Assembly: GCA_964459075.1 (NCBI GenBank)
Contig: CAYWKE010000001.1
Span: 4,626-68,625 of the forward strand
Reading direction: 5' to 3'
From: an uncultured Candidatus Saccharibacteria bacterium
GTDB taxonomy: Bacteria; Patescibacteriota; Minisyncoccia; Phycocordibacterales; UBA12088
DNA: 64,000 nucleotides
The translations under genes were made by a program, and so were the position numbers. The notes below the pieces were generated by a model. That model had not been told where the DNA came from. It was given only the letters and a program-made list of their open reading frames with translations, and did no database searches. Position 1 is the stretch's first letter; the number at the start of each line of letters is the position of its first letter. Shown here one piece after another: positions 8,739 to 23,361 of this stretch.

Positions 8739-11147
8739 CTAGTGTGATTTTGCTTCGGTCTCGGCAAAGAGCGGGAGCGACTTGATGACCGTATCGGGTG
8801 AGAGTGAGATACTCTCGATCCCGCGCTCAATGAGGAATGCGGCGATGTCTGGGAAGTCTGAAGGTGCCTGTCCGCAGATGCCGATGTATTTGCCACGATC
8901 CTTGCAGGCAGCGATCGCGACCTCCATCATCTCGAGGACCGCGTGGTTCTGCTCGTTCCCGACCGAAGCAATGGTCGCCGAATCGCGGTCGAGCCCCAGG
9001 ACAAGTTGCGTGAGGTCGTTCGAGCCGATCGACATGCCGTCGAAGCGATCGAGGAATTCGTTCGCCAGGATGACGTTACTCGGGACCTCGCACATGACGT
9101 ACACCTTAAGCTTGTCATCCTTCATGCGATCGAGTCCGTGCTCACTCATGACGAAGAGCACCTTGTCGGCCTCATCCAGGGTGCGGCAGAACGGCACCAT
9201 CGGGACCGCGTTGTCGAGGCCCATCTCGTAGCGCACCTTTGCCATTGCCTTACATTCGAGTCCGAACGCATCCTTGAACGAGTCACTGTAGTAGCGGCTC
9301 GCCCCGCGCCACCCGATCATCGGGTTCGCTTCCTCGGGCTCGTAGAGATCGCCGCCGATGAGCGTGCGGTACTCGTTGGTCTTGAAATCTGAGAAGCGAA
9401 TGATGACGTCGTGGGGGTAGAACGCTGCCGCGATCATGGCGATACCTTCAGCAAGTTCATCCACGTAGTACTGGGTCTTGTCCTCGTAGCCCGGGGTCAG
9501 CCGGTCGATCGTCTCCGCGAGGCGTCGCTGCGCACTGTCCTCTGCGTTCTTCAGTTCTTGGTAGTGGAAGAGTGCATTGGGGTGGATACGGATGTGCGAG
9601 TTGATGATGAACTCCAAGCGCCCCAGACCCACGCCCTTGACGGGAAGGTAGTGGTTCTTGAATGCCTCGTGTGGTGAGCCAACGTTGACCATCATCTTGG
9701 TCTTCAGCTCTGGCACCTCGTCGAGTCGGTGTTCTTCGGTCTCGTACGAGAGGAGGCCGCGCAGGACGCGTCCCTCTTTGCCGGACGAGCAGTCGATCGT
9801 CACCTCGTCGCCATCTTTGAGTGCTGATGTCGCATTGCCACAGCCCACGATGCACGGTATTCCGAGCTCGCGAGAGACAATCGCGGCGTGGCTCGTGCGG
9901 CCACCTTTGTCGGTGACGATGGCGCTCGCGATCTTCATGATGGGCTCCCAGTCGGGATCGGTGATCTCAGTGACCAACACCTCACCTTCGTTGAACGAGC
10001 CGATATCCTTGACGTCGCGAATGACGTTGACCTTCCCTGAGGCGATCTTGGTGCCGACCGCGGTCCCCGACACCATCTGCGGACCCTCTTCCTTGAGCTT
10101 GTACTCAATGACGGTCTTCTTGTCGCCGACGGAGTGGATGGTCTCAGGTCGCGCCTGAACGATGTAGAGCTGACCGGTCTTCCCATCCTTGGCCCACTCC
10201 ATGTCCATCGGTTGGTAGTGCCCATGGTGCTCGGAGAAGTGCTTCTCGATGACCACGGCCCACCGCGCAAGCTGGCTTGCGTCCTCATCCGTGATGCAGT
10301 ACTGGTCGCGCTCTTCCTCGAGCACCCCCACGATGATGCCGCCCTTCTCACCATAGATCATCTTGACCTCTTTGCTGCCTAGGTCCTTGGCGATGAGACC
10401 TGAGAGACCCTTCTCGAGGGAGGGTTTGAAGAGCGTGAATGCGTCCGGGTTGACCTTTCCTTGCACGACCATCTCACCGAGGCCGTAGGAGCCCTCGATG
10501 ATGACGACCTTATCAAAGCCGGTCTCGGTGTCGAGTGAGAACATCACGCCGGAGGCGGCGAGGTCCGAGCGCACCATGATCTGAATGCCGACCGAGAGCG
10601 CGGCATCAGTGTGTGAGAAGCCCTTATCGGCGCGGTAGGAGATAGCACGGTTGGTGAAGAGTGAGGCAATGCACATCTTTGCATGCGCGACGACCGCTTC
10701 CTCGCCAACGACGTTGAGGTAGGTCTCCTGCTGGCCCGCGAAAGAGGCACCAGGCAGGTCTTCCGCGGTCGCACTTGAGCGCACGGCAACATCCTTAGTG
10801 CCGTACTCCTCGGTCAGCTGCGCGTACGCATCCCCGATCTCTCGCTTGAGATCGTCGGGTAGCTTCGCCTCTAGGATCATGGAGCGCACCGCTTGGCCAC
10901 GATCGGAGAGGTCCTGCATGTCGTGGGTGTTGAGCCCAGCCAAGGTCTCGTTGATGCGGTCGCGCAGACCTGCGGAATCGAGGAAGTAATTATACGCGTG
11001 TGCGGTAACCGCGAATCCATCGGGCACGTTGACCCCCAGTTGCTTGAGCCGGGAGACCATCTCTCCCAACGCCGCGTTCTTGCCTCCGACCAACGGAACA
11101 TCCTTGATCGAGAGGTCTGCAAATCGAATGATATGTCGCTCGTCCAT
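8739..11147 (-). CDS. ppsA: phosphoenolpyruvate synthase (pyruvate, water dikinase)
   Basis: ORF 8739..11174; the track start is a TTG, and the ATG at 11145-11147 ('MDERHIIRFADLSIKDVPLVGGKNAALGEM') is preferred. It carries the PEP-utilizing-enzyme motif 'GGRTSHAAIVSRELGIPCIVGCG'. At about 800 aa it has the size of PpsA. Confidence 0.88.
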   Translation of the reverse strand: MDERHIIRFADLSIKDVPLVGGKNAALGEMVSRLKQLGVNVPDGFAVTAHAYNYFLDSAGLRDRINETLAGLNTHDMQDLSDRGQAVRSMILEAKLPDDLKREIGDAYAQLTEEYGTKDVAVRSSATAEDLPGASFAGQQETYLNVVGEEAVVAHAKMCIASLFTNRAISYRADKGFSHTDAALSVGIQIMVRSDLAASGVMFSLDTETGFDKVVIIEGSYGLGEMVVQGKVNPDAFTLFKPSLEKGLSGLIAKDLGSKEVKMIYGEKGGIIVGVLEEERDQYCITDEDASQLARWAVVIEKHFSEHHGHYQPMDMEWAKDGKTGQLYIVQARPETIHSVGDKKTVIEYKLKEEGPQMVSGTAVGTKIASGKVNVIRDVKDIGSFNEGEVLVTEITDPDWEPIMKIASAIVTDKGGRTSHAAIVSRELGIPCIVGCGNATSALKDGDEVTIDCSSGKEGRVLRGLLSYETEEHRLDEVPELKTKMMVNVGSPHEAFKNHYLPVKGVGLGRLEFIINSHIRIHPNALFHYQELKNAEDSAQRRLAETIDRLTPGYEDKTQYYVDELAEGIAMIAAAFYPHDVIIRFSDFKTNEYRTLIGGDLYEPEEANPMIGWRGASRYYSDSFKDAFGLECKAMAKVRYEMGLDNAVPMVPFCRTLDEADKVLFVMSEHGLDRMKDDKLKVYVMCEVPSNVILANEFLDRFDGMSIGSNDLTQLVLGLDRDSATIASVGNEQNHAVLEMMEVAIAACKDRGKYIGICGQAPSDFPDIAAFLIERGIESISLSPDTVIKSLPLFAETEAKSH

Positions 11148-11196
11148 GGTACGTAAAGAACTTAGGTTCCCCAATAAACACTACTACTAAAAGAAC

Positions 11197-12489
11197 TCAC
11201 TCCTTCAGCAACACGTACAGATCTGATACGTTGCTACCAGTATACCCCGTAACCACTCCTTGATGCACCCTGTGGAAGAATGTGAAGGAGTCACAGCGGG
11301 TAAGAAAGTCGTGCGGATCGAGTCCTGCTTCACGTGCTGCCTCCTGCGTCGTGGTATCAGCGATCGCACCTGCGTTATCGGACTTGTCGCGTCCGTCGGA
11401 GGCCACGGTCAATACGAGCTCACCCGCAGTAAGCGCTGGGAGCGCAGCAAGGGCGAGGTGTTGATTGCGTCCACCCTCTCCCTCGCCCGTGATCTCGACC
11501 GTCGTCTCGCCACCGTAGAGCCACACCTCGCCAGGGCCCATACGCTTGAGTTCATGCGCGAACCGCTGCGCGACCGCGTTCGCATCTCCCTCAAGGGTCG
11601 CCGAGACCACTCGCGGTGACAGACCACGTTCACGCGCAACGCGCTCCATAGCCGACAGGGCGGCCTGGTTCGTCAGTGCTAGGGTGTTGCGTGTGGTCGC
11701 AAAGCATGCCGGGTCTTTCGGGGTCTCGAACAGCACAGCGGGGTCGAACCCCTCAGGCGCACACGCGAACGTGGAGAGAACCGAACGCGCATCGGCGACT
11801 GTTGATGTATCAAGAATGGTCGGTCCTGAGGAGATCACGGAAAGGTCATCCCCAGGCACGTCCGAGAAGATGAGTGCCTCCAAGCGCGCAGGGTGGGCTG
11901 CCGCAGCGAGGTGTCCGCCGCGAGCGAGCGAGAGGTGCTTGCGTACGGTGTTCAGCTTGGCGATGGTTACGCCGCACGAAAAGAGTGCGCGGATCAGCTC
12001 TTCCTCAGCCACACAGGTGTGACTCTGCGGTTGGAACAGCAAGGTAGAGCCGCCACCTGAGATGATGAGAATGATCAGGTCGTCCTCGGTCGCGCTCTCA
12101 AGGAGGGTCAGAAGCTCCCTCGTGTGGAGCACGTTGGCATCTGAGGGGTAGGGGTGGGTACCCTCACACGAGCGGATGCGCTTCAGGATACCGCTGTCGC
12201 ACCGCACATCAACGACCACCCCATCGTCAATGCGCTCGCCCAAGATCTCTTCGAGCGCGTAGGCAGCATCGAGCGCACACTTCCCCACACCCCCGACGAG
12301 CAATCGTCGAAATGAGGTTGCTGGATAGCGCCTCCCAGCGATCACGAGCGTGCCGTCCGGCTCACGCGCGACCTGCGCGCGCATGACCGCTCGCGTATCG
12401 ATGGCGCTGAGCGCGGCTTCCACCAAAGCGAGCGCGTGTGCGCGCAGTGGCGTACATGCCAATTCCTCCGCATTCTGCACGTACCCCAT
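11197..12489 (-). CDS. glycerate 2-kinase (MOFRL family / DUF4147)
   Basis: 430 aa. 'GVGKCALDAAYALEEILGERIDDGVVV', 'IIISGGGSTLLF' and 'LSGGTDGIDG'-like regions are characteristic of the hydroxypyruvate reductase-like glycerate kinase family. Confidence 0.75.
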   Translation of the reverse strand: MGYVQNAEELACTPLRAHALALVEAALSAIDTRAVMRAQVAREPDGTLVIAGRRYPATSFRRLLVGGVGKCALDAAYALEEILGERIDDGVVVDVRCDSGILKRIRSCEGTHPYPSDANVLHTRELLTLLESATEDDLIILIISGGGSTLLFQPQSHTCVAEEELIRALFSCGVTIAKLNTVRKHLSLARGGHLAAAAHPARLEALIFSDVPGDDLSVISSGPTILDTSTVADARSVLSTFACAPEGFDPAVLFETPKDPACFATTRNTLALTNQAALSAMERVARERGLSPRVVSATLEGDANAVAQRFAHELKRMGPGEVWLYGGETTVEITGEGEGGRNQHLALAALPALTAGELVLTVASDGRDKSDNAGAIADTTTQEAAREAGLDPHDFLTRCDSFTFFHRVHQGVVTGYTGSNVSDLYVLLKE

Positions 12490-12576: not shown

Positions 12577-13257
12577 ATGGAGGTGATGCGCCACGTGATA
12601 TTTCGGCACCGCTACACGATACTGATCGGTGCACCCATTGTGGTGATGCTCGCCACATCGCTCGGGTTCACCACGCAGTTCGATACGCTCACCCTCGAAC
12701 CTTCCCAGCGCTTCATCGCCGTAGGCGCAACCACCTCGATCGCGGTCTCGATCACGACGACCGAACCGGTCAACGTCATTGGGGGCGAGATCACCCTCTC
12801 TGAGGAACTGCGCGTCATCTCGATCGACACCACCGAGACCATCGTCGACCTATGGAGCGATGAACCAGCAGCGAGAGCCCCACGGGTCATCACCTTCAGC
12901 GGCGGGATCATACCGACGGAGGCAGGAGGATTTGAGGGCTCAGGCACGCTCTTTCAGTTCACTGTTGCGGCCGCCAAAGCAGGTTCGGGTCGCATCGAGT
13001 TCACACAGGCTGAGGTACTCGCCCACGATGGGCGAGGCACCAACGTGCTCGACCGACGGGTCCCCTTACGCCTGGTCGTCCATCCCAGCTCACGCCCCTC
13101 CCCCGACCTCGATGCGGATGATCGTGTCTCGCTGCTTGACGTGGGAATGGTCTCACGTCGAATATTCACCTCCTACGATCCACGCTATGATCTCAATACC
13201 GACGGACGTATTTCCTTCAGCGATGTCCTCCTGGTGATGCGCTACCTCGCCAAGTAG
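12577..13257 (+). CDS. small secreted protein with cohesin-like domain and C-terminal dockerin-like segment
   Basis: ORF 12436..13257 trimmed to the ATG at 12577 because the track start overlaps the divergent gene. Signal/TM 'ILIGAPIVVMLATSLGF'. Cohesin-like core '...VNVIGGEITLSEELRVISIDTTETIVDLWSDEPAA...ITFSGGIIP...GSGRIEFTQAEVLAHDG'. The C-terminal 'DLDADDRVSLLDVGMV...YDLNTDGRISFSDVLLVMRYL' resembles a Ca-binding dockerin repeat pair. Confidence 0.5.
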   Translation: MEVMRHVIFRHRYTILIGAPIVVMLATSLGFTTQFDTLTLEPSQRFIAVGATTSIAVSITTTEPVNVIGGEITLSEELRVISIDTTETIVDLWSDEPAARAPRVITFSGGIIPTEAGGFEGSGTLFQFTVAAAKAGSGRIEFTQAEVLAHDGRGTNVLDRRVPLRLVVHPSSRPSPDLDADDRVSLLDVGMVSRRIFTSYDPRYDLNTDGRISFSDVLLVMRYLAK

Positions 13258-13350
13258 TCACGCACGCCGCGCGAAGGTGCGCAGGTGTCATCAGTGATTC
13301 TCAGCGAGTTGGCAGAGAAGCCTCGCGCTCCGCTCCTGCCCTTAGACACA

Positions 13351-15147
13351 CTAGGAGCGCATGCGGGTGATGCGAAGCGGCTGTGGCCTCGCGGCGCTCT
13401 CGATATCCTCGATCTCGTCAATGATGTGCTCCTCACTCTGGGTGAGCTGGCGTGAGAGGTCAAGCAGCACTTGCTCCTCCTCTCGGGTCAGAGGACGTTC
13501 CCTGCTTGCAGCAGTGAGGTTGGCAACGTGCTGAGAGAGCTTTTGTTCGAGTTCTCCGAATGAGGCGTGGACGATATCCTCGGCCTCTCGTGTCTCCACG
13601 CGCACCAAACCACGCGCGCGCCGAACCGCGAGCCAGCCTAACCACAGCACAAACGCCAGAAGGGATACGAGACCGATGAGCGACAACAGGATGGTGAGAT
13701 AGCTCACTGCTACCGAGCCGAACAGCAGCAGCGTCGGTTGCGCAACCGTGACCACAAGGGGCGCGGTGAACAAGCTCGTCGCCCCGCGCTCATCGCGCAC
13801 ACGTGCTCGTATCTCGTAATCCCCACTGCGCGCCAATTCGGTGATCGTCATCACGAAACTTCCTGCGCCATCTGCCTCGACCGTGCGTCGCTCCCACTCG
13901 CCGTCATTGAGGCTATACTCTACCTCGACCAGCGCACCCGGGGGCGCACTGCCGCGCACTGATAGCCGCTCTCCCACATTGACATCGGTCATCGATGCCA
14001 ACTCAGGCATAGGAAGCGGCTCGACCACGAACTGTACCGAACGCTCAATGGTGTTGTCCGCTGCGTCGAACGCGATGACCGTGAGGGTGTGCTCTCCCGG
14101 CTCAATGTCAGACGGAAGGAACGCTCCCTGCTGCGCGTCGTCCACACCCCAGCGCACCGAGCGACCACCGTTGAGCGCGATCTCGTAGTGCGTCACACCT
14201 GACCCCTCATCCACCGTTGAGAATGAGAACCCAACGCGTGGGTCGGTCCGATCTGAGCGGGGGGTCTCGGTGATGGTCAACTCCTCCGGCGGAGTGATAT
14301 CGACACGCAGCGGATAGCTGTACACAGGACCCCACGTGCCAGCCTCACGAAACTGCAGGTGCGCGACATTCTCCCCTTCCGGAAGATCGGGGATCGTCAG
14401 CTGCGGCACCGCGGGCTCGTAGAGTGTGGTTGGTCGTGCCTGAGGATCACGCGAGACGTCGAGCCGAAGGGCGTCAACACTCTCAGGGAGCTCCCAGAAC
14501 AAAAACGCGGTCGTGGTCGCGGCCCACCCGTCTGGATCGGGGTGGGTCGAGGAGCGCAGCGGGCTGTTCGCACTTCTCGCCGGGGTCGAGATGGTCGTGA
14601 TCTCAGGAACGATATCGCGCTGCGTCAGTGTGTAGGTACCAGAGCGAAGGCCCGAGAGGACGTTGCTTGCCTGGCCGTTCGCTGAGAATGCAGCGGCACC
14701 CTGAGAGAACCACACCTGACTTGCTGAAGGACGCAGTGCTCGCAGCGTCAGGGTGAGTACCTCTCCTGCCGCACCCTGGTAGCCCCCGACAGCGGTCGCA
14801 CCCGAGAAGGTCAATCGTCCCGTTGCAGGATCGAGTTGTGGACGTTCGATCCAGGAAGAGACGATGGAGTCATCGGTGTTGACGGCGATCAACTCGACAT
14901 CTTCTTGGGTGAGCGAGAGACTTCCTTCAATGGCGTTGACCAGTTCCCCACCGGTATCGATAAGGACCGCAAGCGTGAACTCCTCCCCGATGGGAATGAC
15001 CGCTGATGGTGGTGACAGGTACAGTGATGCGTCGGCGCTCGCCGTTACCGGAAGTCCCACGACGAGCGCGAGTAGGAGCGTGAAGCACGCGCAACGAACA
15101 CACGCGAGGTGGGTGAGCGAATGACGGATGGTGGTGCTGGTGCTCAT
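13351..15147 (-). CDS. membrane-anchored cohesin-like domain protein (paralog family A)
   Basis: 598 aa. Signal peptide, then a cohesin-like domain ('LYLSPPSAVIPIGEEFTLAVLIDTGGELVNAIEGSLSLTQEDVELIAV...SSWIERPQLDPATGRLTFSGATAVGG'). Next come Ig-like regions with 'RVDITPPEELTI', a TM helix 'LLLFGSVAVSYLTILLSLIGLVSLLAFVLWLGW', and a cytoplasmic coiled-coil tail. Confidence 0.6.
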   Translation of the reverse strand: MSTSTTIRHSLTHLACVRCACFTLLLALVVGLPVTASADASLYLSPPSAVIPIGEEFTLAVLIDTGGELVNAIEGSLSLTQEDVELIAVNTDDSIVSSWIERPQLDPATGRLTFSGATAVGGYQGAAGEVLTLTLRALRPSASQVWFSQGAAAFSANGQASNVLSGLRSGTYTLTQRDIVPEITTISTPARSANSPLRSSTHPDPDGWAATTTAFLFWELPESVDALRLDVSRDPQARPTTLYEPAVPQLTIPDLPEGENVAHLQFREAGTWGPVYSYPLRVDITPPEELTITETPRSDRTDPRVGFSFSTVDEGSGVTHYEIALNGGRSVRWGVDDAQQGAFLPSDIEPGEHTLTVIAFDAADNTIERSVQFVVEPLPMPELASMTDVNVGERLSVRGSAPPGALVEVEYSLNDGEWERRTVEADGAGSFVMTITELARSGDYEIRARVRDERGATSLFTAPLVVTVAQPTLLLFGSVAVSYLTILLSLIGLVSLLAFVLWLGWLAVRRARGLVRVETREAEDIVHASFGELEQKLSQHVANLTAASRERPLTREEEQVLLDLSRQLTQSEEHIIDEIEDIESAARPQPLRITRMRS

Positions 15148-16175
15148 GCTGATTCTCCTGGGTCCGATCGGAAGGGCTCCTGCTCAGCACGTGCTCCTTC
15201 CCTGCGGTAGGCGCGGACAAGTTTGAGTGCGATGAATCCACATGCGGTAAGGAGTACGAGGAGAATGAGCCACCCCACGAGATCGAGAAAGGTGAACACG
15301 CGTCGCAGCTCCTCAGGGGGCTGGAAAGAGACAACCCTCTCGTTCCCTGCTTTATCGACCGCTTTCACTTGAATGGTGCTGTTGAGGGATTGGTCACGCA
15401 GGACGTACGGACTCTTCGTGGTGATCCACTGCGCCTCTCGCGAGACGAACGAGAGGAACCCCCAGCGCTCCGGATCGGTCTCGCGTACCTCGTAGTACGC
15501 GATGCCGCTCTGTTTGTCGGTCGTATTGAAAGCAATGAAGTAGCGCCCGCGCGCGACGTAGGGTTCGGTGTCGAGAATGATCTCGAACAACTCGGGTGCG
15601 GTGATGTCTTGCTTGACCCGAGCGACCCACGCATCTTGCGGTGTCGTCGTGGCGAGACCATCGATAGGTACGGCCTGGCTCTCCAGACGCGCGGGTAGCA
15701 CCGTTCCCTGCCCGTCGTGCCCGTACACCTCAGCCTCATCGATGCGGATAGAGGTCGCGAGCTGTTCGGTCGTGGGCTGCACACGAAAGACAAGCTCGGC
15801 AATGATGTTGGTGAGGCCTGGATCACCTACGACGCGTCCACAGTACCCACCCGGGATACCGCCTGAAAAGGTCACCGATCCGGCCTCTCGGTCGAACTGC
15901 GGCTCCTCGGTCCAGAGTGTGAGAATGGAGCGTCCGCGCGCGACCTCCACGATATCAAGGTGGTCGGTGGTGTAGGAGAAATCCATACGCACCGTATTGA
16001 TACACGCACCTTCTGTGTCGATCCGGACCGGTACGATGAACACCTCGCCAGGCACCACGACCTCGTGAGGATCGATCGAGAGCACGAGCGCTGCAGCAGT
16101 GTGCGGAGCAACACACATAAGGGCGAGCGAGAGGGCTGGTAGTAGGCGGTGCATGGTACTCATTATAGCGTGCAT
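15144..16175 (-). CDS. membrane-anchored cohesin-like domain protein (paralog family A)
   Basis: ORF 15144..16325 trimmed to an internal ATG because the track start overlaps the upstream gene. Signal 'MHRLLPALSLALMCVAPHTAAA'. Cohesin-like 'LVLSIDPHEVVVPGEVFIVPVRIDTEGACINTVRMDFSYTTDHLDIVEV...LWTEEPQFDREAGSVTFSGGIPGG'. 'KQDITAPELFEII' Ig-like region, then C-terminal TM 'FLDLVGWLILLVLLTACGFIAL'. Confidence 0.6.
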   Translation of the reverse strand: MHAIMSTMHRLLPALSLALMCVAPHTAAALVLSIDPHEVVVPGEVFIVPVRIDTEGACINTVRMDFSYTTDHLDIVEVARGRSILTLWTEEPQFDREAGSVTFSGGIPGGYCGRVVGDPGLTNIIAELVFRVQPTTEQLATSIRIDEAEVYGHDGQGTVLPARLESQAVPIDGLATTTPQDAWVARVKQDITAPELFEIILDTEPYVARGRYFIAFNTTDKQSGIAYYEVRETDPERWGFLSFVSREAQWITTKSPYVLRDQSLNSTIQVKAVDKAGNERVVSFQPPEELRRVFTFLDLVGWLILLVLLTACGFIALKLVRAYRREGARAEQEPFRSDPGESA

Positions 16176-16206
16176 GCTGAGGGCGTGGGAGCAGTTATCC
16201 AGTCCA

Positions 16207-17385
16207 TTATCCGGTCCAGGCAAAGAGCATGATAGAGAAATCGGGCAGGCCGACCGTACCATCCTGGTTGAAGTCTGCGATCGCATTCGTGGTCTGCCAG
16301 TTGAAGAGAAAGATAGAGAAGTCAATCAGATCAACCCGACCATCCTGGTTAATATCAGGGGTGATTGATGTGTCAACATCCCGCACGCCGACGTAGAAGT
16401 TGACGAGCTGGCTGTACCCACTCTGTGCAGCGGCAGCTCGGTAGTTCGCCTTTGCGGTATGAAAACTCTCATTGGCAAGGGTCCTGGTCTCGAACGAGAG
16501 GAGCCACGCACCGTTGGCTGCTGAGGTCGTTGTTGCGGACAGATCACCATTGTCGATGAGGGTCGTGACTTGCCTCTCGGGAGGTGCCTCGCCCCGCACG
16601 GTGATCGAGGTACCCAAGGGGACTTGATCAGGTTCCACCGCAATAGTAGGAGGGATAAGGATGCCCGACACATTCGTGACCGCACTCTGGATGATCTCAA
16701 AAGTCGTCGAGAAGGTGATGGAGCGTCGACCCTCAGAGTCCTGGGCCCAGAATCCAAACGTCGTCGCCCCAGGCGTGAGACCGGAGTAGTCCAGGGAGAA
16801 CTCGCCGTCACTGTCCGCCTCAACGACCTCGTCTATCTCGCCATCGAGGAGGATATTGACCGTGGCGCCCGGGTAGGCAATACCGGAGATGAGTACCTCG
16901 GTCGGATCATCGAGGTTGACGGTGCCATCGTCGGTGCCATCTGGGTCGCCGCCTCCACCCGAACTGCCACCCCCTCCGCCTCCGCCACCGGAGCTCTCAC
17001 CCGTTCCTCCTGGGTCAGTTGTTGGGGCAACCTCGTTGTTGCACTCGAAGTCACACAGGTCGCCAGAGACATTGTTCCCGTCGTCGCACTCTTCACCAAA
17101 GAGAACCTGGAGGACACCGTCCCCACAGTACGGACCGAATGAGAGGCAATCACCAGCGCAATCCCGCGTGGAGCTAGACAGCGCGTACTCGCCGTCGTTG
17201 ATCCCATCGTCACAGATCTCGTTCGACTGCACGATAGCATCTCCGCACACGCTCACGTTAAGCGTGGTCGTCGCTTGCTCCGGGCCACCGGCACGCACCC
17301 CAGGCGCGAGGCCACCCAGAATGAGCACTCCTACAAACAGGAGCGTCGTAGGGCGTATGAGGTTGGCAGTCACGATAGGCATCAT
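16207..17385 (-). CDS. secreted protein: Cys-rich (Myxococcus-type) repeats + poly-Gly linker + Ig-like domains + C-terminal dockerin
   Basis: 392 aa. Repeats 'CGDAIVQSNEICDDGINDGE...DCAGDC' and 'CGDGVLQVLFGEECDDGNNVSGDLCDFEC'. Linker 'SSGGGGGGGGSSGGGG'. The C-terminus 'DINQDGRVDLIDFSIFLFNWQTT..ADFNQDGTVGLPDFSIMLFAWTG' is two DxNxDGxVxxxD Ca-loop dockerin repeats. Confidence 0.65.
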   Translation of the reverse strand: MMPIVTANLIRPTTLLFVGVLILGGLAPGVRAGGPEQATTTLNVSVCGDAIVQSNEICDDGINDGEYALSSSTRDCAGDCLSFGPYCGDGVLQVLFGEECDDGNNVSGDLCDFECNNEVAPTTDPGGTGESSGGGGGGGGSSGGGGDPDGTDDGTVNLDDPTEVLISGIAYPGATVNILLDGEIDEVVEADSDGEFSLDYSGLTPGATTFGFWAQDSEGRRSITFSTTFEIIQSAVTNVSGILIPPTIAVEPDQVPLGTSITVRGEAPPERQVTTLIDNGDLSATTTSAANGAWLLSFETRTLANESFHTAKANYRAAAAQSGYSQLVNFYVGVRDVDTSITPDINQDGRVDLIDFSIFLFNWQTTNAIADFNQDGTVGLPDFSIMLFAWTG

Positions 17386-18539
17386 GGACGTTCCCTTCGG
17401 CGCGACAGGTCAACCACCCCGTGTGGACGGGCTTGCTCTGGACGTGGTGGATGGTGTCTCGGCGGTGGCGCCTGTGGTCGCTGGGGCGCCGCGCGACGCA
17501 CGGGCGGGTGCCCACGTGGTGGGCCGTGGTCGTGAGGCATCGGTCTTCTTGGCGCGTGATGCTGTTCGTAGGGCGGTTCATCTCGGTCATCAGGAACAGC
17601 AGTTCTCGGAGGTCGACGGCGACGCGTGGTCAGCCGCAGCACGAGTAGCCCCGCACCAATGAGGATCAGGAGTACGATAGGCGGAAGGATAAGGGTGAGC
17701 TTGTCGCGCAGCGACAACCCTACGAACCCGTACCCACTGTACCCATCGATCGTCCCCTCGGGCAAGACCGAGAGGGTAAGCTCACCAGAGCGTTTGAGCT
17801 CATCATCAAGAAGGATCTTGTAGCGCACCAAGTACCCACTCGGGGGGAGCCAATTGGGCAACTCGGCAGTGACCTGGCTCAGTGCGAAGGGTTCCACGAG
17901 CTCCATGCGATTCGTACTCTCGATCGACGAGAGAAGCACCGACCCACGCTTGTCGTACACATCAAACACCACCGTTGTGGGCGCGACGGGGACGTTACCA
18001 GTGTTCTCAATGTTCATCGCAAAACGCGTCTTACCGGGGAAGGTGAGCCACCACCGTCTGCGTGGCTCCTCTACTTCAGAGAGGCGCACCCGCTGCACAA
18101 TGAAGTCACGGATCTCGTCGTCGACCCCTAGCTCGACATCGATCTGTGCACCGAGCGCGATCGAGACACCCGAGGTTGGATCTGCGGGAATGGTACGGAT
18201 ACGCATCGTTCCTCGGTACGTATCGAGCTCAGCATCTTCTGGGACACGCACGGTCACTTGGATGGGGACCTGTGCCTGCCCACGCGGCAATACGAACTCC
18301 GTACCCCGATCGATAGTTACCCACTCCGAGAACCCGGGGAGGTTGTAGGTGATCTCTGCGCGTAGGTCATCGACAGGGTCCCCTCGCACAATGGTGATGG
18401 TCTGTGTGTACTCTGACCCCGGTGTGAGTCGAGTATTCTGCACGTACGGAGGCGAGATACCGAACCCCGCACGTGCGATCTCAGCTGGTGCAACGAGCAA
18501 GATAAGTGCGACCAACAGTATGTACCAACCCCTAATCAT
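17382..18539 (-). CDS. DUF916/DUF3324-like cell-surface protein, C-terminal TM anchor, Pro/Arg-rich cytoplasmic tail (paralog family B)
   Basis: 385 aa. Signal 'MIRGWYILLVALILLVAPAEIARA'. Beta-rich ectodomain ('...AEITYNLPGFSEWVTIDRGTEFVLPRGQAQVPIQVTVRVPEDAELDTYRGTMRIRT'). TM 'LILPPIVLLILIGAGLLVLRL', then 'RRRRPPRTAVPDDRDEPPYEQHHAPRRP...'. Same architecture as 51057.., 53712.. and 55174... Confidence 0.55.
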   Translation of the reverse strand: MIRGWYILLVALILLVAPAEIARAGFGISPPYVQNTRLTPGSEYTQTITIVRGDPVDDLRAEITYNLPGFSEWVTIDRGTEFVLPRGQAQVPIQVTVRVPEDAELDTYRGTMRIRTIPADPTSGVSIALGAQIDVELGVDDEIRDFIVQRVRLSEVEEPRRRWWLTFPGKTRFAMNIENTGNVPVAPTTVVFDVYDKRGSVLLSSIESTNRMELVEPFALSQVTAELPNWLPPSGYLVRYKILLDDELKRSGELTLSVLPEGTIDGYSGYGFVGLSLRDKLTLILPPIVLLILIGAGLLVLRLTTRRRRPPRTAVPDDRDEPPYEQHHAPRRPMPHDHGPPRGHPPVRRAAPQRPQAPPPRHHPPRPEQARPHGVVDLSRRRERP

Positions 18540-18625
18540 GAAGATATACCGTGCGCCTGACGCACGTAATACTCGCCATTGTACCGCTAAACAAGCCTCT
18601 TGAGAAAACTCTCCTGAGGATAGAC

Positions 18626-18663
18626 CGGGGAAAACGAAAACACAGCTGCGAGTGCAGCTGTGT
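18626..18663 (-). terminator. rho-independent terminator candidate downstream of gene 18685..20571
   Basis: Perfect 10-bp inverted repeat ACACAGCTGC/GCAGCTGTGT (18640-18663) with loop GAGT. On the minus-strand transcript it is followed by 'UUUUCGUUUUCC' (plus 18626-18639). Confidence 0.5.
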
Positions 18664-18684
18664 TCTTGGCTATGGATCTAACGA

Positions 18685-20571
18685 TTACCAGGAGGATGAT
18701 TCACCGACAATTCCAGTGATGGTGTTCAGGCCCCTATAGGTACCAGCAAACGTCACACTCGAAGGAACGCGGATACCCCAGTACGTGGTTCCTTGCGAGA
18801 ACGTGGAAGTGGCGGTGGTTGAGGCGATGTTCACCTCGATGTCACCAGGCGATGAGGTTGAGAAGAGGGTAGTGCCTGTGCCGGTCAGGTAGTTGATGCC
18901 TGAATCCAGTGAGAACTTCTGGTTGAATACGAAGATGGTCGAAGTCGCAACCGGAATACCGTTCGAACAGTTCGGGTAATCCACACACATGTCAGAACCG
19001 GTGACATCCTGGTCAAGTCCTACATTCCCGGTCGCCTGGAGGACGGAGGTCGCATTGAGGGTGCCGGTATTTGCTCCCGGGGCAACCCCGCCATACGCGA
19101 TCTCAGCGTCGACGACATCGAACTGCAAGAACTGGTTGAGCTGGCGTTCAAATGTTGAGGTGGTTGCGGTTGAGGTCGCACCGTTGTCATCGATCACTTC
19201 GACACTAGCAACCCAATGCTCACCTTGGTAGAAGGATGGCTCTATACCCGTGGTCGGCTGCGCGAGGAACCACAAGGGGAATGTGCACTCTACGATCGCT
19301 GTGGAATCACCTGTACCTTGGCAGGTTCCTGCTTGCTGCGCACATGAGATGTTCCAGACCGCGGTTCCGACATCCTGGGGGTAGCAGAACGCTGGGTCGT
19401 ACTCACTCGCCTCGTCACAGTCACCCGGAAGCACCCCAGAGCGATGTACATTGACGATGTAGTTCGCGACCTCATTCCCATCAGATACGTCGTCGCCGTT
19501 CGTATCGATAGCACAACTATTGTCGTCGTTGACATCGAAGACAAGGTTGATACCTGGCGTTTCACCTGCTTCAACGGTCAAGGTTATATCGGTCGAACTA
19601 CCGAGGTCGATATCAGCCGCGGCAACGGTCGGGGTGGCGTTGAGAATATTGTAGAACGAGCTGTTTGCTGCTCCCGTCACCGCACCGGTTGCCAGAAGAC
19701 CAAACTGGTCGACGATGAATACGTACGCGGGCCGAGAGCCGTCGGGCGCTGGAAACGGTATGGAGGTCGATGCTTGCGGGTTGAGCGAGGTGAGAGTAGA
19801 TGTGCCCAATCCCTCACCTGACTCACAGAACCCATTGGAGGTCACGGTATCGGTCGCGCAGACCAACAGGCGGAATGAGGCAGTTCGCAGGACGTCAACA
19901 GTGTCGCTTGCGGTAGCACTCCACGTCACATCGTCATCCGGTAGTGCGCCTCCCGAGTTACTGATAGCGCCAAAGCTGACCGGGTTGTTCACCACGAACG
20001 GTGACTCCTGGCCGGCACCGGTCGAGGTGCCTGTTGAGTAGTCGCTGTTGCAGGATGGGGTGCCGGAATTGTTGTCACAGATGAATGCGAACCAGTTGTT
20101 CTGCTCGGCTTCTACGGGGGAGCCATTTCCTGCGCCGAGCGCAACACGTGAAGCAACTGCGACCGCACCACTGGAGGCTAGTGCCGAGCGTGCCCAGCGG
20201 TTGCTCGAGCCACCATCACACTCAGGAGGATTTCCTGATGTTATGGTCGGTGTGACGTCATTGGTACACACGATGAGGTAGTAATCCTCAAGGTTGGCAT
20301 CGTTCGCGGTGGCTTCCCAGACAGTTGACGTGCCGACGTTGGTCGGTGTCGTGGTCGCTGAAGCGAACCGTTCACGCCCTCGTACCGCCCAGCTTGGCGG
20401 CGTATTGAGTACCGTCACGCTCGTTGTCGCAGAATCAGCGTGAACTTCAGAGATTGAACCCCCTCGATCTACATTGAACAGGAAGGTGAGTGACGATGCG
20501 GCGACCAATGAGAGAATGGTTGCCAGTGTCACTCGCCCTGCTGTTGCCTGTGCTTTGTGTGCGCTATGCAT
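18685..20571 (-). CDS. large secreted Thr/Ser/Gly-rich surface protein (possible WxL-like C-terminus)
   Basis: 628 aa. ATG at 20569-20571. N-terminal hydrophobic helix 'VTLATILSLVAASSLTFLF'. Cys pairs suggest disulfide-stabilised beta domains. The C-terminus 'TTYWGIRVPSSVTFAGTYRGLNTITGIVGESSSW' loosely resembles the WGL-type motif of genes 52277.. and 56504... Confidence 0.5.
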   Translation of the reverse strand: MHSAHKAQATAGRVTLATILSLVAASSLTFLFNVDRGGSISEVHADSATTSVTVLNTPPSWAVRGRERFASATTTPTNVGTSTVWEATANDANLEDYYLIVCTNDVTPTITSGNPPECDGGSSNRWARSALASSGAVAVASRVALGAGNGSPVEAEQNNWFAFICDNNSGTPSCNSDYSTGTSTGAGQESPFVVNNPVSFGAISNSGGALPDDDVTWSATASDTVDVLRTASFRLLVCATDTVTSNGFCESGEGLGTSTLTSLNPQASTSIPFPAPDGSRPAYVFIVDQFGLLATGAVTGAANSSFYNILNATPTVAAADIDLGSSTDITLTVEAGETPGINLVFDVNDDNSCAIDTNGDDVSDGNEVANYIVNVHRSGVLPGDCDEASEYDPAFCYPQDVGTAVWNISCAQQAGTCQGTGDSTAIVECTFPLWFLAQPTTGIEPSFYQGEHWVASVEVIDDNGATSTATTSTFERQLNQFLQFDVVDAEIAYGGVAPGANTGTLNATSVLQATGNVGLDQDVTGSDMCVDYPNCSNGIPVATSTIFVFNQKFSLDSGINYLTGTGTTLFSTSSPGDIEVNIASTTATSTFSQGTTYWGIRVPSSVTFAGTYRGLNTITGIVGESSSW

Positions 20572-20603
20572 GACCCCAACAAAGTTTTTCTAATACATGT
20601 CCT

Positions 20604-20609
20604 AGTATA
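20604..20609 (-). promoter_or_regulatory. TATACT -10-like hexamer ('CCGTATACTAGG') 32 nt upstream of ATG 20571
   Basis: It lies in the 79-nt intergenic region between the permease gene and the 628-aa surface-protein gene. Confidence 0.35.
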
Positions 20610-20650
20610 CGGCGAAACGTGGTACGTGTGCAGGGTCGTTATGTGGAAAA

Positions 20651-21859
20651 CTACTTGTAGCGAATGGCGTCGAGTGGGTTGAGTGCAGCAGCGCGGCGCG
20701 CTGGGAAGACCCCGGTCAGGAACCCGACGACCGCCGAGAACGTCAAGATGAAGAGGAGGAACCACAACGGGAAGGCAAAGAGGGCCATGGCCGTACCGCC
20801 GAAGTTGGTTGCAGCAATATTGACAGCTAAGTTGAGACCTTTCCCAATACCCACCCCAATGAGAATACCAACAATACCTCCCATGAAGCCCACGATGATG
20901 GCCTCCGCGATGAAGAGGATCTTGATGTCGTTACTCGAGGCGCCCAGGGTACGCATGATACCGATCTCGCCTGTGCGCTCCAGGAGGGTGACGGTCATGG
21001 TGTTGAACATACCGATCGCCGAGACGGTGAGCGCGATACCGCCAAATACCGCGAGCACCGCCTGGATACCCTGGAAGATGGCGTTCGCCTGCTCGACGGT
21101 CTTGGAGAGCGCGGTCACCGAGAAGCCCCGCGCAACGATGGCATCCGTGACCTGATCGAGAAGCCCTGCCTCAAGGACACGCACCTGGATACGCTCGTAC
21201 GAGGCGATCGGAACGTGCGAGGAGAGCTCGTCGAGGCGAATGAAGCTCGCTATCTGGTTCTCCTCACTCGTCACCCCGAGAACCGTGTAGCTCTTCTTTA
21301 TCTCGACCTCGTCCGTCTCATCCGTGCCCGAGCGCGGCACGAAAACCCGGAACGTCACCCGTCGACCGATGGCATCCTCGGGGTCTTCAATGTCAAAGAG
21401 TTTGAGCATGGCCGCGGTCAGGATGACCCCATTGCGATCCTCAACCGCGCTCTCCTCGTCAAAGAGCCGCCCGGCAGCTTCCTTGGCACCCACGAACCGA
21501 AAGTACGCCGGGTCAAGCCCTTGCAGGAAGGTGTTACCTGTGAGGTCACCCAGGGTGATGAGTGCCGGGAACGATGCCATAGGCGCGACCTGACGCACCT
21601 CGGGAAATGCACTCAGCTCCTGAACCACCTGTGGGTCGAGCACGACCACGCGCGTGGGAGGATTGGTGACGTTGAGCGAGAGGAGCGTGTCCCCCAGGAC
21701 GATCTGCTCCAGGATGATACCCTGCAGACCAAAGCCCAGACCCACGAGGGTCACGACCGCGCCCGTTCCCACACCCATACCAAGGATGGTCAACCAGGTA
21801 CGCGTCGGGTTGGTCTTGAATGCGCGCGTCGATAGTGCTGCGATGTCTCGTACAAGCAT
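20651..21859 (-). CDS. ABC transporter permease, FtsX/MacB-type (4 TM with large extracytoplasmic loop)
   Basis: 402 aa. N-terminal 'TWLTILGMGVGTGAVVTLVGLGFG', large loop, then a C-terminal three-TM bundle ('...ILFIAEAIIVGFMGGIVGILIGVGIG...FPLWFLLFILTFSAVVGFLTGVFPARRAA'). The stop of the upstream ATPase gene is 6 nt away. Confidence 0.8.
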   Translation of the reverse strand: MLVRDIAALSTRAFKTNPTRTWLTILGMGVGTGAVVTLVGLGFGLQGIILEQIVLGDTLLSLNVTNPPTRVVVLDPQVVQELSAFPEVRQVAPMASFPALITLGDLTGNTFLQGLDPAYFRFVGAKEAAGRLFDEESAVEDRNGVILTAAMLKLFDIEDPEDAIGRRVTFRVFVPRSGTDETDEVEIKKSYTVLGVTSEENQIASFIRLDELSSHVPIASYERIQVRVLEAGLLDQVTDAIVARGFSVTALSKTVEQANAIFQGIQAVLAVFGGIALTVSAIGMFNTMTVTLLERTGEIGIMRTLGASSNDIKILFIAEAIIVGFMGGIVGILIGVGIGKGLNLAVNIAATNFGGTAMALFAFPLWFLLFILTFSAVVGFLTGVFPARRAAALNPLDAIRYK

Positions 21860-21865
21860 AGGCGA

Positions 21866-23356: not shown

Positions 23357-23361
23357 ATCGT

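What the first reader, a model, noticed from the sequence alone, without database searches (positions are those of the whole stretch)
12577..17385. Cohesin-like / dockerin-like protein set outside any cellulolytic context (locus 1)
Three adjacent genes encode proteins with a cohesin-like beta-sandwich signature ('L.(I/V)...(I/V).IDT....NA..G.L.YD...L..V.V......W.EEP.......G.I.FSGG'). Two of them (13351.., 15144..) are anchored by a C-terminal TM helix and a cytoplasmic tail. The next gene (16207..) encodes a secreted protein ending in a canonical two-loop dockerin (DxNxDGxVxxxD twice) plus Myxococcus-type Cys-rich repeats. The divergent small gene 12577.. combines a cohesin-like core with a dockerin-like tail, which would suit an adaptor. 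There are no glycoside hydrolases or CBMs nearby. This looks like a cellulosome-style plug-and-socket system repurposed to display cargo on membrane-anchored scaffolds. I score this 0.8.
Basis: partly seen in the sequence, partly recalled or inferred. Interest (0 to 1): 0.8.

Follow-up and report, generated by a model that had tools for sequence, protein, structure and literature searches.

The report
Cohesin–dockerin surface operon in Parcubacteria
Real but divergent cohesin and dockerin modules lie in a nine-gene cell-surface operon with an ABC transporter that is kept in the same order across dozens of Parcubacteria-type ultra-small bacteria, most likely to fasten secreted non-enzymatic surface proteins to the membrane; no binding has been tested.

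Summary
Genes A (12577..13257, +), B (13351..15147, −) and C (15144..16175, −) share one domain. By family-level Pfam hits, PDB profile hits and an AlphaFold2 model (pLDDT 90; top 19 PDB matches are all cohesins), it is a divergent cohesin. A and D (16207..17385, −) end in two-loop dockerins. A passes Pfam's threshold. D does not, but 28 of 29 orthologs match Dockerin_1 at E ≤ 0.01. B and C have C-terminal membrane helices, and D has only a signal peptide.

These genes are the end of a colinear nine-gene cluster: FN3 protein, MacB-type ABC ATPase and permease, two unknown Ig-like proteins, then D, C, B and A. It recurs in about 80 Patescibacteria species genomes, mostly labelled Parcubacteria/Paceibacteria. 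A second cohesin/dockerin pair lies at 46511..50564, next to giant genes and Pam-pilus-like genes.

No glycoside hydrolase or CBM was found, and 43 carriers of this dockerin type have only Ig-like or repeat domains. The best reading is a non-cellulosomal cohesin–dockerin anchoring system for surface or adhesion proteins. Binding, partner pairs and the ABC transporter's role are inferred, not shown. It is a new variant of a known kind, of moderate interest.

The parts
12577..13257 (+). Gene A (226 aa): N-terminal hydrophobic anchor or signal sequence, one cohesin-like domain (about 12688..13086), and a C-terminal type-I-like dockerin (13105..13248)
   Evidence: Pfam Dockerin_1 scores 31.9 bits against GA 22.9. 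The C-family cohesin HMM hits it at E 6.9e-9. Among 26 family members, 24 match Dockerin_1 and 9 match Cohesin at E ≤ 0.01. Hydrophobic segment at residues 14-32.
13351..15147 (-). Gene B (598 aa): signal peptide, cohesin-like domain (about 14608..15030), Ig-like domains (Big_13), TM helix, and a conserved ~90-aa helical cytoplasmic tail
   Evidence: Cohesin HMM E 1.7e-14. Big_13 scores 32.5 bits. TM at 486-504. Orthologs carry a precomputed weak PF00963 hit. The tail motif is conserved.
15144..16175 (-). Gene C (343 aa): signal peptide, cohesin domain (about 15651..16091), Ig-like domain, TM helix, and a short tail
   Evidence: Pfam Cohesin scores 17.3-17.8 bits, below GA 24.1. 19 of 41 family members match Cohesin, best E 8.5e-8. 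The family profile hits only cohesins in the PDB. AF2 pLDDT 90, and Foldseek hits 1-19 are all cohesins.
16207..17385 (-). Gene D (392 aa): signal peptide, Cys-rich acidic repeats, Gly-rich linker, Ig domains, and a C-terminal two-loop dockerin (16210..16356) ending in WTG
   Evidence: DUF4215 and TIGR02232 are above threshold, Big_6 scores 33.9 bits, and Dockerin_1 scores 18 bits, below GA. 28 of 29 family members match Dockerin_1, best E 5.5e-10. Both Ca loops are kept in 70 of 72 family members.
17382..18539 (-). Gene E (385 aa): signal peptide, β-rich ectodomain, TM helix, and a Pro/Arg-rich tail. A distant paralog of p555, and through it of p385 and p507, at 51-57 kb
   Evidence: No curated family hit. 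BLAST to p555 gives E 9e-7. TM at 283-301. Present in 46 of 52 loci with enough flank.
18685..20571 (-). Gene F (628 aa): N-terminal signal or anchor followed by a string of Cys-rich Ig-like β-sandwich domains. Its C-terminal ~250 aa are shared with giant protein 1
   Evidence: AF2 pLDDT 82. Only generic Ig/FN3/PKD matches. No Pfam, NCBIfam or PDB sequence hit. BLAST to the C-terminus of giant1 gives E 1e-8.
20651..21859 (-). Gene G (402 aa): MacB-type (type VII ABC) permease with four TM helices and a large extracytoplasmic domain
   Evidence: MacB_PCD 75.7 bits and FtsX 60.8 bits. Closest solved relatives are YtrF (2e-27), MacB and LolF/LolC.
21866..23356 (-). Gene H (496 aa): ABC ATPase of the MacB/LolD/FtsE group with a ~270-aa C-terminal extension
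   Evidence: ABC_tran 107 bits. Best NCBIfam matches are DarD, FtsE and LolD. PDB matches.
23469..24929 (-). Gene I (486 aa): secreted protein made of FN3 / Pur_ac_phosph_N-type domains. First gene of the conserved cluster
   Evidence: Pfam. Signal sequence only. Syntenic in 39 loci.
46511..48007 (-). Second-locus cohesin protein (498 aa): signal peptide, cohesin, Ig-like domains, TM helix, and a B-like cytoplasmic tail
   Evidence: Pfam Cohesin scores 34.3 bits against GA 24.1, E 3.3e-8. Paralog of B, E 1e-18. TM at 399-417.
48660..50564 (-). Second-locus dockerin protein (634 aa): signal peptide, unknown N-terminal domain, Gly/Ser linker, Ig domains, and a D-type dockerin
   Evidence: D-family dockerin HMM E 1.6e-23. 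41% identical to D over 237 aa. Big_6 above GA.

Best explanation
This is a non-cellulosomal cohesin–dockerin anchoring system that belongs to a conserved cell-envelope operon of Parcubacteria/Paceibacteria (CPR bacteria).

Proposed mechanism:
- B and C, and the paralog at 46511..48007, are type-I membrane proteins. Each holds a single N-terminal cohesin module away from the membrane on Ig-like stalks.
- D, and the paralog at 48660..50564, are Sec-secreted, non-enzymatic proteins built from Cys-rich repeats and Ig-like domains. Their only candidate retention signal is a C-terminal Ca-binding dockerin, which plugs into one of the cohesins.
- A carries both a cohesin and a dockerin behind an N-terminal anchor or signal sequence. 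It could bridge or extend the assembly.
- The co-transcribed MacB-type ABC pair (G/H), the Ig-like proteins E, F and I, and the nearby giant proteins are taken to belong to the same surface structure. That structure is probably an adhesion or attachment layer or fibre of an episymbiotic cell.

Shown here: module homology, predicted cohesin fold, membrane topology from hydropathy, conserved synteny, and the absence of enzymes.

Inferred: cohesin–dockerin binding, which dockerin fits which cohesin, the role of the ABC transporter, and the biological function.
For: Cohesin:
- The AF2 model of C has pLDDT 90, and PDB Foldseek hits 1-19 are all cohesins (E down to 7.8e-8, TM 0.65-0.77).
- 19 of 41 C-family members match Pfam Cohesin.
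- The C-family profile hits only cohesins in the PDB.
- The second-locus cohesin passes Pfam GA.
- B, A and the second-locus copy are significant hits of the C-family domain HMM.

Dockerin:
- A is above Pfam GA.
- 24 of 26 A-family members and 28 of 29 D-family members match Dockerin_1.
- Both 12-residue loops, with D/N/D/D at positions 1, 3, 5 and 12, are kept in 52 of 54 A-family and 70 of 72 D-family members.
- 105 of the 120 listed relatives of the D-type dockerin carry a precomputed PF00404 hit.

Topology:
- B, C and the second-locus cohesin have C-terminal TM helices. D, I and the second-locus dockerin protein have only N-terminal signals.

Synteny:
- The order I-H-G-F-E-D-C-B-A recurs in 75 of 83 loci from different species.
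- D is present in 51 of 52 loci with enough flank, and B in 72 of 74.

Cargo:
- 43 carriers of the D-type dockerin have only Ig-like, Y_Y_Y, DUF4215 or FG-GAP domains.

Co-variation:
- D's dockerin co-varies with B after controlling for G, H, E and F distances (partial Mantel r 0.30, p 0.004). It does not co-vary with C or with A's cohesin.
Against:
- The window's own copies of C (17.3 bits) and D (18 bits) fall below Pfam gathering thresholds. B and A's cohesin get no Pfam Cohesin hit at all. The assignment therefore rests on family-level and fold evidence.
- No dockerin structure was predicted.
- The co-variation signal is weak. It is stronger for the non-cohesin part of B (r 0.415) than for B's cohesin, so it may reflect shared evolutionary rates and not interface co-evolution.
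- Dockerin-like EF-hand pairs also occur as plain Ca-stabilising modules without cohesin partners.
- The role given to the ABC transporter, E, F and I rests on synteny alone.
Confidence: 0.6

Rival explanations
1. The operon is a fibre or pilus assembly system related in principle to the CPR Pam pilus (donor-strand exchange). E would be a membrane-anchored PapD-like chaperone. F, and the giant protein that shares F's C-terminal domain, would be the polymerising or tip subunits. The cohesin–dockerin proteins would only form the base that ties the fibre to the membrane. The MacB-type ABC pair would supply mechanical energy.
For: - E is a distant paralog of p555 (E 9e-7). p555 groups with p385 and p507 (E 2e-40 to 9e-19). 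All have the layout signal peptide, β-rich ectodomain, TM helix. That is the architecture described for PamC/PamD (bioRxiv 10.64898/2026.03.03.709456).
- These paralogs flank p397, and giant2 lies in the same array. The C-termini of p397 and giant2 hit NCBIfam CPR_Pam_pilin_C (E 4e-7 and 3e-7).
- F and giant1 share a C-terminal domain.
- All these genes lie on one strand from 63.7 to 13.3 kb.
Against: - No protein of the nine-gene cluster hits CPR_Pam_pilin_C.
- The two Pam hits score 30 bits, below the 55-bit cut-off.
- The F-family profile shows no relation to p397 (hhalign probability 0.9%).
- E's fold was not predicted, and E matches no PapD family.
- The Pam paper mentions no ABC transporter, cohesin or dockerin. 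It places Pam pilins mainly in Saccharimonadia and Microgenomatia.
Confidence: 0.2
2. The cohesin-like and dockerin-like modules do not pair with each other. The cohesin-fold domains are generic β-sandwich spacers or ligand-binding (for example host-glycan-binding) domains. The dockerin-like tails are Ca-stabilised EF-hand caps. The genes are neighbours because all encode envelope proteins.
For: - Sequence similarity to canonical cohesins is only 10-17%.
- The window's copies of C and D are below Pfam thresholds.
- Dockerin-like sequences are very common: 2869 representatives at E ≤ 1e-3, some with up to 15 repeats in one protein.
Against: - Strict co-occurrence and fixed gene order of three cohesin genes and two dockerin genes across about 80 species.
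- A second cohesin/dockerin pair lies two genes apart in the same window.
- The dockerin always sits at the extreme C-terminus of otherwise anchorless secreted proteins.
Confidence: 0.12
3. The cluster is an ABC export or import system, and the surface proteins are accessory substrate-capturing components. This would resemble ANME archaea, where dockerins are fused to ABC substrate-binding proteins.
For: - G/H is a complete MacB-type ABC pair inside the operon.
- Dockerin-tagged solute-binding proteins are reported in ANME (PMC9012536).
Against: - No solute-binding-protein domain occurs in any cluster member.
- From established knowledge, MacB/Lol/FtsX-type transporters are not importers.
- Carriers of this dockerin type have only Ig-like or repeat domains.
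Confidence: 0.05

Closest known systems
Non-cellulosomal cohesin–dockerin modules (Archaeoglobus fulgidus pair, ANME archaea, Clostridium perfringens cohesin 2vo8; surveyed by Peer et al. 2009 as cited in PMC9012536)
   Same: Single cohesin and dockerin modules occur in organisms with no cellulose metabolism. The dockerins are fused to non-cellulolytic proteins. There is no multi-cohesin scaffoldin. The C. perfringens non-cellulosomal cohesin 2vo8 is Foldseek hit 6 for C.
   Different: Here the cohesins sit on proteins with a C-terminal TM helix. The genes form a fixed nine-gene operon with a MacB-type ABC transporter that is conserved across a whole CPR class. The dockerin carriers are purely Ig-like or repeat proteins.
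Cellulosome anchoring scaffoldins (for example R. flavefaciens ScaE, C. thermocellum SdbA/OlpB) with dockerin-bearing partners
   Same: A cell-bound cohesin captures the C-terminal dockerin of a secreted protein. The cohesin fold is predicted, and the dockerins have duplicated 12-residue Ca loops followed by helices.
   Different: There are no SLH or sortase anchors; a TM helix is used instead. There are no glycoside hydrolases, no CBMs and no multi-cohesin primary scaffoldin. Sequence identity to cellulosomal cohesins is only 10-17%.
Adaptor scaffoldins (cohesin plus dockerin in one chain, for example A. cellulolyticus ScaB, R. flavefaciens ScaA)
   Same: Gene A has one cohesin and one dockerin in a single polypeptide.
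   Different: A is only 226 aa, has a single cohesin, and carries its own N-terminal hydrophobic anchor or signal sequence. Its partner specificity is unknown.
Pam pilus system of CPR bacteria (bioRxiv 10.64898/2026.03.03.709456)
   Same: A CPR-specific surface apparatus built of Ig-like proteins with membrane-anchored accessory proteins. Pam-pilin-like C-terminal domains and PamC/D-like architectures occur 35-50 kb into the same window.
   Different: The nine-gene cluster itself has no detectable Pam pilin domain. The Pam operon as described has no ABC transporter, cohesin or dockerin.
Type VII (MacB-type) ABC mechanotransducers: MacB, LolCDE/LolF, FtsEX, B. subtilis YtrEF
   Same: G has the MacB periplasmic core domain plus an FtsX four-helix permease. 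H is a LolD/FtsE-like ATPase.
   Different: Scores are far below every equivalog cut-off, so this is a separate subfamily. H carries a ~215-270-aa C-terminal extension. The operon partners are cohesin/dockerin surface proteins, not a MacA adaptor, lipoproteins or a hydrolase activator.

Membership tests
Cohesin (Pfam PF00963) | Sequence match to the curated profile above the gathering score | tested here: inconclusive
   C scores 17.3-17.8 bits against GA 24.1. B and A have no hit. The second-locus protein (46511..48007) passes with 34.3 bits. 19 of 41 C-family members and 9 of 26 A-family members match at E ≤ 0.01. B, A and the second-locus copy are significant hits of the C-family domain HMM.
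Cohesin (Pfam PF00963) | Nine-stranded β-sandwich (jelly-roll) cohesin fold | tested here: met
   In the AF2 model of C (pLDDT 90), Foldseek PDB hits 1-19 are all cohesin modules, with E 7.8e-8 to 4.4e-5 and TM(target) 0.54-0.77. This is a prediction, and it was made for C only.
Cohesin (Pfam PF00963) | Binds a dockerin | not testable with these tools
   No complex modelling or experiment was available. There is only weak co-variation between D's dockerin and B.
Dockerin type I (Pfam PF00404) | Sequence match to the curated profile above the gathering score | tested here: met
   A scores 31.9 bits against GA 22.9. D scores 18.0 and the second-locus dockerin 13.5, both below GA. However, 28 of 29 D-family members, 24 of 26 A-family members and 40 of 43 other carriers match Dockerin_1, best E 5.5e-10, 1.1e-7 and 1.5e-10.
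Dockerin type I (Pfam PF00404) | Two tandem segments, each an EF-hand-like 12-residue Ca loop (D/N at positions 1, 3, 5; D/E at 12) followed by a helix | tested here: met
   D has DINQDGRVDLID and DFNQDGTVGLPD. A has DLDADDRVSLLD and DLNTDGRISFSD. Both loops are conserved in 70 of 72 D-family and 52 of 54 A-family members, at a spacing of 27-31 residues. Helices and Ca binding were not modelled.
Cellulosome | Dockerins on glycoside hydrolases or other CAZymes, a scaffoldin with several cohesins, and a CBM | tested here: not met
   No GH or CBM domain occurs in any scanned protein of the window or in 43 carriers of this dockerin type. Each protein has a single cohesin.
Pam pilus system (CPR) | Pilin with the CPR_Pam_pilin_C domain (NF058581) | tested here: not met
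   No hit for A-F, for G-I, or for E and F at E ≤ 5. Only p397 (52277..53470) and the C-terminus of giant2 hit it, at 30 bits, below the 55-bit cut-off. The F family is unrelated to p397.
Pam pilus system (CPR) | Membrane-anchored PapD/FimC-like chaperone (PamC/PamD) | tested here: inconclusive
   E, p385, p555 and p507 have the layout signal peptide, β-rich ectodomain, C-terminal TM helix. E's fold was not predicted, and no PapD profile matches.
MacB-type (type VII) ABC transporter | Permease with a MacB periplasmic core domain and an FtsX-type four-helix bundle, plus a cognate ATPase | tested here: met
   G: MacB_PCD 75.7 bits, FtsX 60.8 bits, four hydrophobic helices. H: ABC_tran 107 bits. 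PDB relatives are YtrF, MacB and LolF/C/E. No NCBIfam equivalog cut-off is reached.

The most novel reading that the evidence does not exclude
The nine-gene operon encodes a previously undescribed envelope machine that is near-universal in Parcubacteria/Paceibacteria. In this reading, a MacB-type mechanotransducing ABC pair (G/H) powers the assembly, extension or release of a host-attachment fibre. The ABC pair may communicate with the conserved cytoplasmic tails of the cohesin anchors. The fibre would be built from F, I, D and the giant proteins, with E acting as a membrane-anchored chaperone. It would be tied to the membrane by cohesin–dockerin joints instead of sortase, SLH or usher systems.
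Probability: 0.2. Interest if true: 0.8.

Novelty: new variant of a known kind. Interest (0 to 1): 0.55.

Why it matters
Parcubacteria/Paceibacteria make up a very large, uncultivated part of bacterial diversity. They are thought to live attached to other cells, yet how they hold surface proteins, and how they hold their hosts, is almost unknown. They lack the usual Gram-positive anchoring systems.

A cohesin–dockerin operon with a fixed gene order, kept at only 35-45% identity across about 80 species and coupled to an ATP-driven MacB-type transporter, is a concrete and testable candidate for their core surface-anchoring or attachment apparatus. It would extend cohesin–dockerin biology from enzyme scaffolding to general envelope architecture.

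The small single-module pairs (3-4 cohesins and 3 dockerins in one genome) would also be a compact set of potentially orthogonal protein connectors for engineering.

Tried and rejected
- **Direct PDB sequence search with C alone:** nothing relevant.
- **Exact look-up of the window's own protein in the contig index:** not on record.
- **Essential dockerin protein SEML1_0315 of Saccharibacteria (Cell 2023):** checked as a possible ortholog. It is a stand-alone 927-aa protein in an unrelated neighbourhood, so it is not this system.
- **F as a Pam pilin relative:** rejected at the sequence-profile level.
- **Cellulosome membership:** rejected, because there are no GH or CBM domains and no multi-cohesin scaffoldin.
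- **Word-index search with the dockerin profile:** returned only short gene fragments and said nothing about cargo. The exhaustive representative search was used instead.
- **Promoter and terminator scan of 12-26.5 kb:** no more sites than expected by chance.
- **Literature searches:** cohesin/dockerin with Parcubacteria, CPR or Patescibacteria found no description of this operon.

Full report
**What is in the sequence**

The flagged interval holds one + strand gene, A (12577..13257, 226 aa), and three − strand genes:
- B: 13351..15147, 598 aa.
- C: 15144..16325 as an ORF. The real start is most likely MHAIM.. at 16175 (343 aa), or 12 nt further in, as in the 339-aa database entry.
- D: 16207..17385, 392 aa.

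The window is about 60% G+C with no compositional break at the locus. It has no tRNA genes.

**The shared domain is real and is a cohesin**

- Pfam gives C only a sub-threshold Cohesin hit (17.3 bits against GA 24.1, E 0.006). It gives nothing for B or for A's N-terminal domain.
- The family evidence is stronger. C has more than 1,397 homologs of about 340 aa, and every organism name attached to them is Patescibacteria, Parcubacteria or Paceibacterota.
- 19 of 41 aligned C-family members match Pfam Cohesin on their own, best E 8.5e-8.
- A profile of that alignment hits only cohesin modules in the PDB, best 5g5d at E 0.002.
- An AlphaFold2 model built on the alignment has mean pLDDT 90. Its N-terminal domain gives cohesins as Foldseek hits 1-19 (6kgf E 7.8e-8; the non-cellulosomal C. 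perfringens cohesin 2vo8 at TM 0.77).
- An HMM of the C-family cohesin domain finds B (E 1.7e-14), A (6.9e-9) and a fourth copy at 46511..48007 (8e-16) among the window's six-frame ORFs. That fourth copy passes Pfam's Cohesin threshold by itself (34.3 bits).

**The dockerins are real**

- A's C-terminus is above Pfam's Dockerin_1 threshold (31.9 against 22.9 bits).
- D's C-terminus is below it (18 bits). However, it consists of two textbook loops, DINQDGRVDLID and DFNQDGTVGLPD, each followed by FSI(F/M)LF.W, and the protein ends in WTG.
- Across orthologs taken from syntenic loci, 28 of 29 D-family members and 24 of 26 A-family members match Dockerin_1.
- Both Ca loops, with D, N/D, D/N and D at positions 1, 3, 5 and 12, are kept in 70 of 72 D-family and 52 of 54 A-family members.
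- D also carries Cys-rich acidic repeats above threshold (DUF4215, TIGR02232) and a Big_6 Ig domain.
- No dockerin structure was predicted.

**Topology**

Hydropathy analysis, together with the AF2 helix in C, gives:
- B: signal peptide, ectodomain, TM helix (486-504), ~90-aa cytoplasmic tail.
- C: signal peptide, ectodomain, TM helix (299-317), 26-aa tail.
- D: signal peptide only.
- A: one N-terminal hydrophobic segment (14-32). It may be a signal anchor or a cleaved signal.

D is therefore a secreted protein whose only candidate retention device is its dockerin. The cohesins are held at the membrane.

- Contigs carrying C homologs show the same neighbours in the same order.
- A scan of one genome per species returned 80 loci. 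When their ORFs were assigned to the window's proteins, 75 of 83 loci were colinear with I-H-G-F-E-D-C-B, with A following on either strand.
- Where the flank is long enough, D is present in 51 of 52 loci, F in 47, E in 46, G in 40 and H in 39. B is present in 72 of 74 and A in 50 of 74.
- Median identities to the window's proteins are 27-60%. The order has therefore been kept over long divergence.
- In the window the cluster spans 12577..24929:
  - I: secreted FN3 / Pur_ac_phosph_N protein.
  - H: ABC ATPase with a C-terminal extension.
  - G: MacB_PCD + FtsX permease. Closest solved relatives are YtrF, MacB and LolF/LolC.
  - F: 628 aa.
  - E: 385 aa.
  - Then D, C, B and A.
- F and E have no curated family.
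- F's AF2 model (pLDDT 82) is an N-terminal helix followed by a string of Ig-like β-sandwiches. It gives only generic matches.
- Named loci include Nomurabacteria, Kaiserbacteria, Nealsonbacteria, Azambacteria, Adlerbacteria, Falkowbacteria, Spechtbacterales and Minisyncoccales. Many third-party MAG records are titled 'Saccharibacteria', and I did not verify those labels.

**Second locus and wider array**

All large genes from 63.7 kb down to 13.3 kb lie on the − strand. Upstream of the cluster lie, in order:
- Giant1 (26002..46347, 6,781 aa). It has DUF2341 domains only, and its last ~250 aa resemble F's C-terminus (E 1e-8).
- A B-like cohesin protein (46511..48007).
- An HSP20 gene.
- A D-like dockerin protein (48660..50564; 41% identical to D over 237 aa; dockerin HMM E 1.6e-23).
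- Three paralogous proteins with the layout signal peptide, β-rich ectodomain, TM helix (p385, p555, p507). E is distantly related to p555 (E 9e-7).
- A 397-aa protein, p397, between p385 and p555.
- Giant2 (2,409 aa), at the far end of the array.

The C-termini of p397 and giant2 hit NCBIfam CPR_Pam_pilin_C at 30 bits, below the 55-bit cut-off.

The Pam pilus is a donor-strand-exchange filament of CPR bacteria with membrane-anchored PapD-like chaperones. That preprint mentions no cohesin, dockerin or ABC component. No protein of the nine-gene cluster hits the Pam pilin model, and the F family is unrelated to p397 by profile comparison.

**What the dockerins carry**

- An exhaustive search with D's 57-residue dockerin found 2,869 representatives at E ≤ 1e-3 and 154 at E ≤ 1e-10.
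- The close ones carry a single copy at the extreme C-terminus. They fall mainly into a ~380-aa class (D-like) and a ~540-650-aa class (like the second-locus protein).
- Of 43 such carriers, 40 match Dockerin_1. Their other domains are Big_6, Big_13, Y_Y_Y, DUF4215 or FG-GAP. None is a glycoside hydrolase, CBM or other enzyme.
'Cargo' here should be read as structural or adhesin-like proteins.

**Who binds whom**

This could not be tested directly. A mirror-tree analysis over 34 loci controlled for G, H, E and F distances:
- D's dockerin co-varies with B's cohesin (partial r 0.30, p 0.004), and more strongly with the rest of B (r 0.415).
- D's dockerin does not co-vary with C (−0.09) or with A's cohesin (−0.03).
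- A's dockerin co-varies about equally with all three cohesins (0.25-0.28).

This is a hint for a D–B pairing at most. The stronger signal outside the cohesin domain suggests shared evolutionary rate as much as interface co-evolution.

**Most likely mechanism and rivals**

The best-supported reading (confidence about 0.6) is a non-cellulosomal cohesin–dockerin anchoring system. Membrane-anchored single cohesins (B, C and the second-locus copy) would retain secreted dockerin-tagged Ig-like or Cys-rich proteins (D and the second-locus copy). A would act as a bridging or extending element. All of this would be part of a larger surface assembly encoded by the operon.
- Shown: homology, predicted fold, predicted topology, synteny, absence of enzymes.
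- Inferred: binding, pairing, and the roles of G/H, E, F and I.

The main rival (about 0.2) is that the operon is a Pam-like fibre system with E as chaperone, and that the cohesin–dockerin proteins only form its membrane base.

Lesser rivals:
- The modules do not pair at all (about 0.12).
- The cluster serves transport (about 0.05).

**Comparison with what is known, and novelty**

- Cohesin and dockerin modules outside cellulosomes are established in archaea, ANME consortia and C. perfringens (and references there).
- Databases already tag some of these CPR proteins with PF00963 or PF00404, or name them 'dockerin type I domain-containing protein'.
- I found no paper describing cohesin–dockerin genes in Parcubacteria or this operon.
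- The only CPR mention was an unrelated stand-alone dockerin protein that is essential in a Saccharibacterium.
- Three features are new relative to the known kind:
  - TM-helix-anchored single cohesins.
  - A fixed nine-gene operon that couples them to a MacB-type ABC pair.
  - Conservation of that operon across a whole CPR class.
- I rate it a new variant of a known kind, with interest 0.55.

Noticed in passing
window 46511..50564 (−): A second cohesin/dockerin pair. It consists of a B-like TM-anchored cohesin protein (Pfam Cohesin above threshold) and a 634-aa D-like dockerin protein. An HSP20 small heat-shock gene (48026..48502) lies between them, which is an odd cytoplasmic gene inside an array of secreted-protein genes.
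   Followed up: partly
window 26002..46347 (−): A giant ORF of 6,781 aa. Its only Pfam hits are DUF2341. Its last ~250 aa resemble the C-terminal domain of F (27% identity, E 1e-8). In several related loci an extra F-like gene sits upstream of gene I. The shared C-terminal domain may be a common attachment module.
   Followed up: partly
window 51057..63733 (−): A Pam-pilus-like region. The 397-aa protein (52277..53470) and the C-terminus of the 2,409-aa protein (56504..63733) hit NCBIfam CPR_Pam_pilin_C at 30 bits, below the cut-off. Three paralogs (51057..52214, 53712..55379, 55174..56697) have a PamC/D-like layout of signal peptide, β-rich ectodomain and TM helix. The Pam preprint places this system mainly in Saccharimonadia and Microgenomatia, so a Parcubacteria-type copy would extend its range.
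   Followed up: partly
window 13351..13640 (B tail) and 46511..46810 (second-locus cohesin tail): The cytoplasmic tails of the cohesin anchors share a conserved helical motif (…KLT..E……VEKEI.DV..L). It is kept in B orthologs of distant species, which suggests a cytoplasmic binding partner and possible signalling or coupling across the membrane.
   Followed up: partly
window 21866..22680 (C-terminal half of H): The ABC ATPase carries a ~270-aa C-terminal extension (about 215 aa in orthologs). In this genome it contains a duplicated EEGGVGL-centred repeat. That exact motif occurs in only 1 of 42 orthologs.
   Followed up: partly
loci L001-L085, gene A: Gene A comes in two types. One is encoded on the opposite strand, as in the window, with dockerin D.NGD..VNL.DFGIVS…YDLN.DGKI. 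The other is encoded on the same strand directly after B, with DIDGDG.V.L.DIS.FM.AW…YDFN.DG.M.F.DFSIIL. The length of the linker between the two loops of D's dockerin (spacing 27 or 31) appears to follow the same split in the loci inspected by eye; this was not counted.
   Followed up: no
window 8739..12489 and loci L001, L004-L006, L008, L011, L015: In the closest relatives the cluster is flanked by glycerate kinase (DUF4147/MOFRL), a PEP-utilising enzyme (PPDK/PEP synthase type) and enolase. Some loci also have a SET-domain protein. This is a conserved chromosomal position, not a mobile island.
   Followed up: no
P0361 (2,148 aa): One representative protein contains 15 separate matches to the D-type dockerin segment. 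Dockerin-like EF-hand pairs therefore also occur as long internal repeat arrays. This is a caution against reading every such motif as a cohesin ligand.
   Followed up: no
loci list: About half of the 80 related loci come from third-party MAG records titled 'uncultured Candidatus Saccharibacteria'. A few are titled Gammaproteobacteria, Aminicenantia or Humimicrobiaceae. All independently named ones are Parcubacteria/Paceibacteria lineages. The odd titles look like generic or mis-binned labels, but this was not checked.
   Followed up: no
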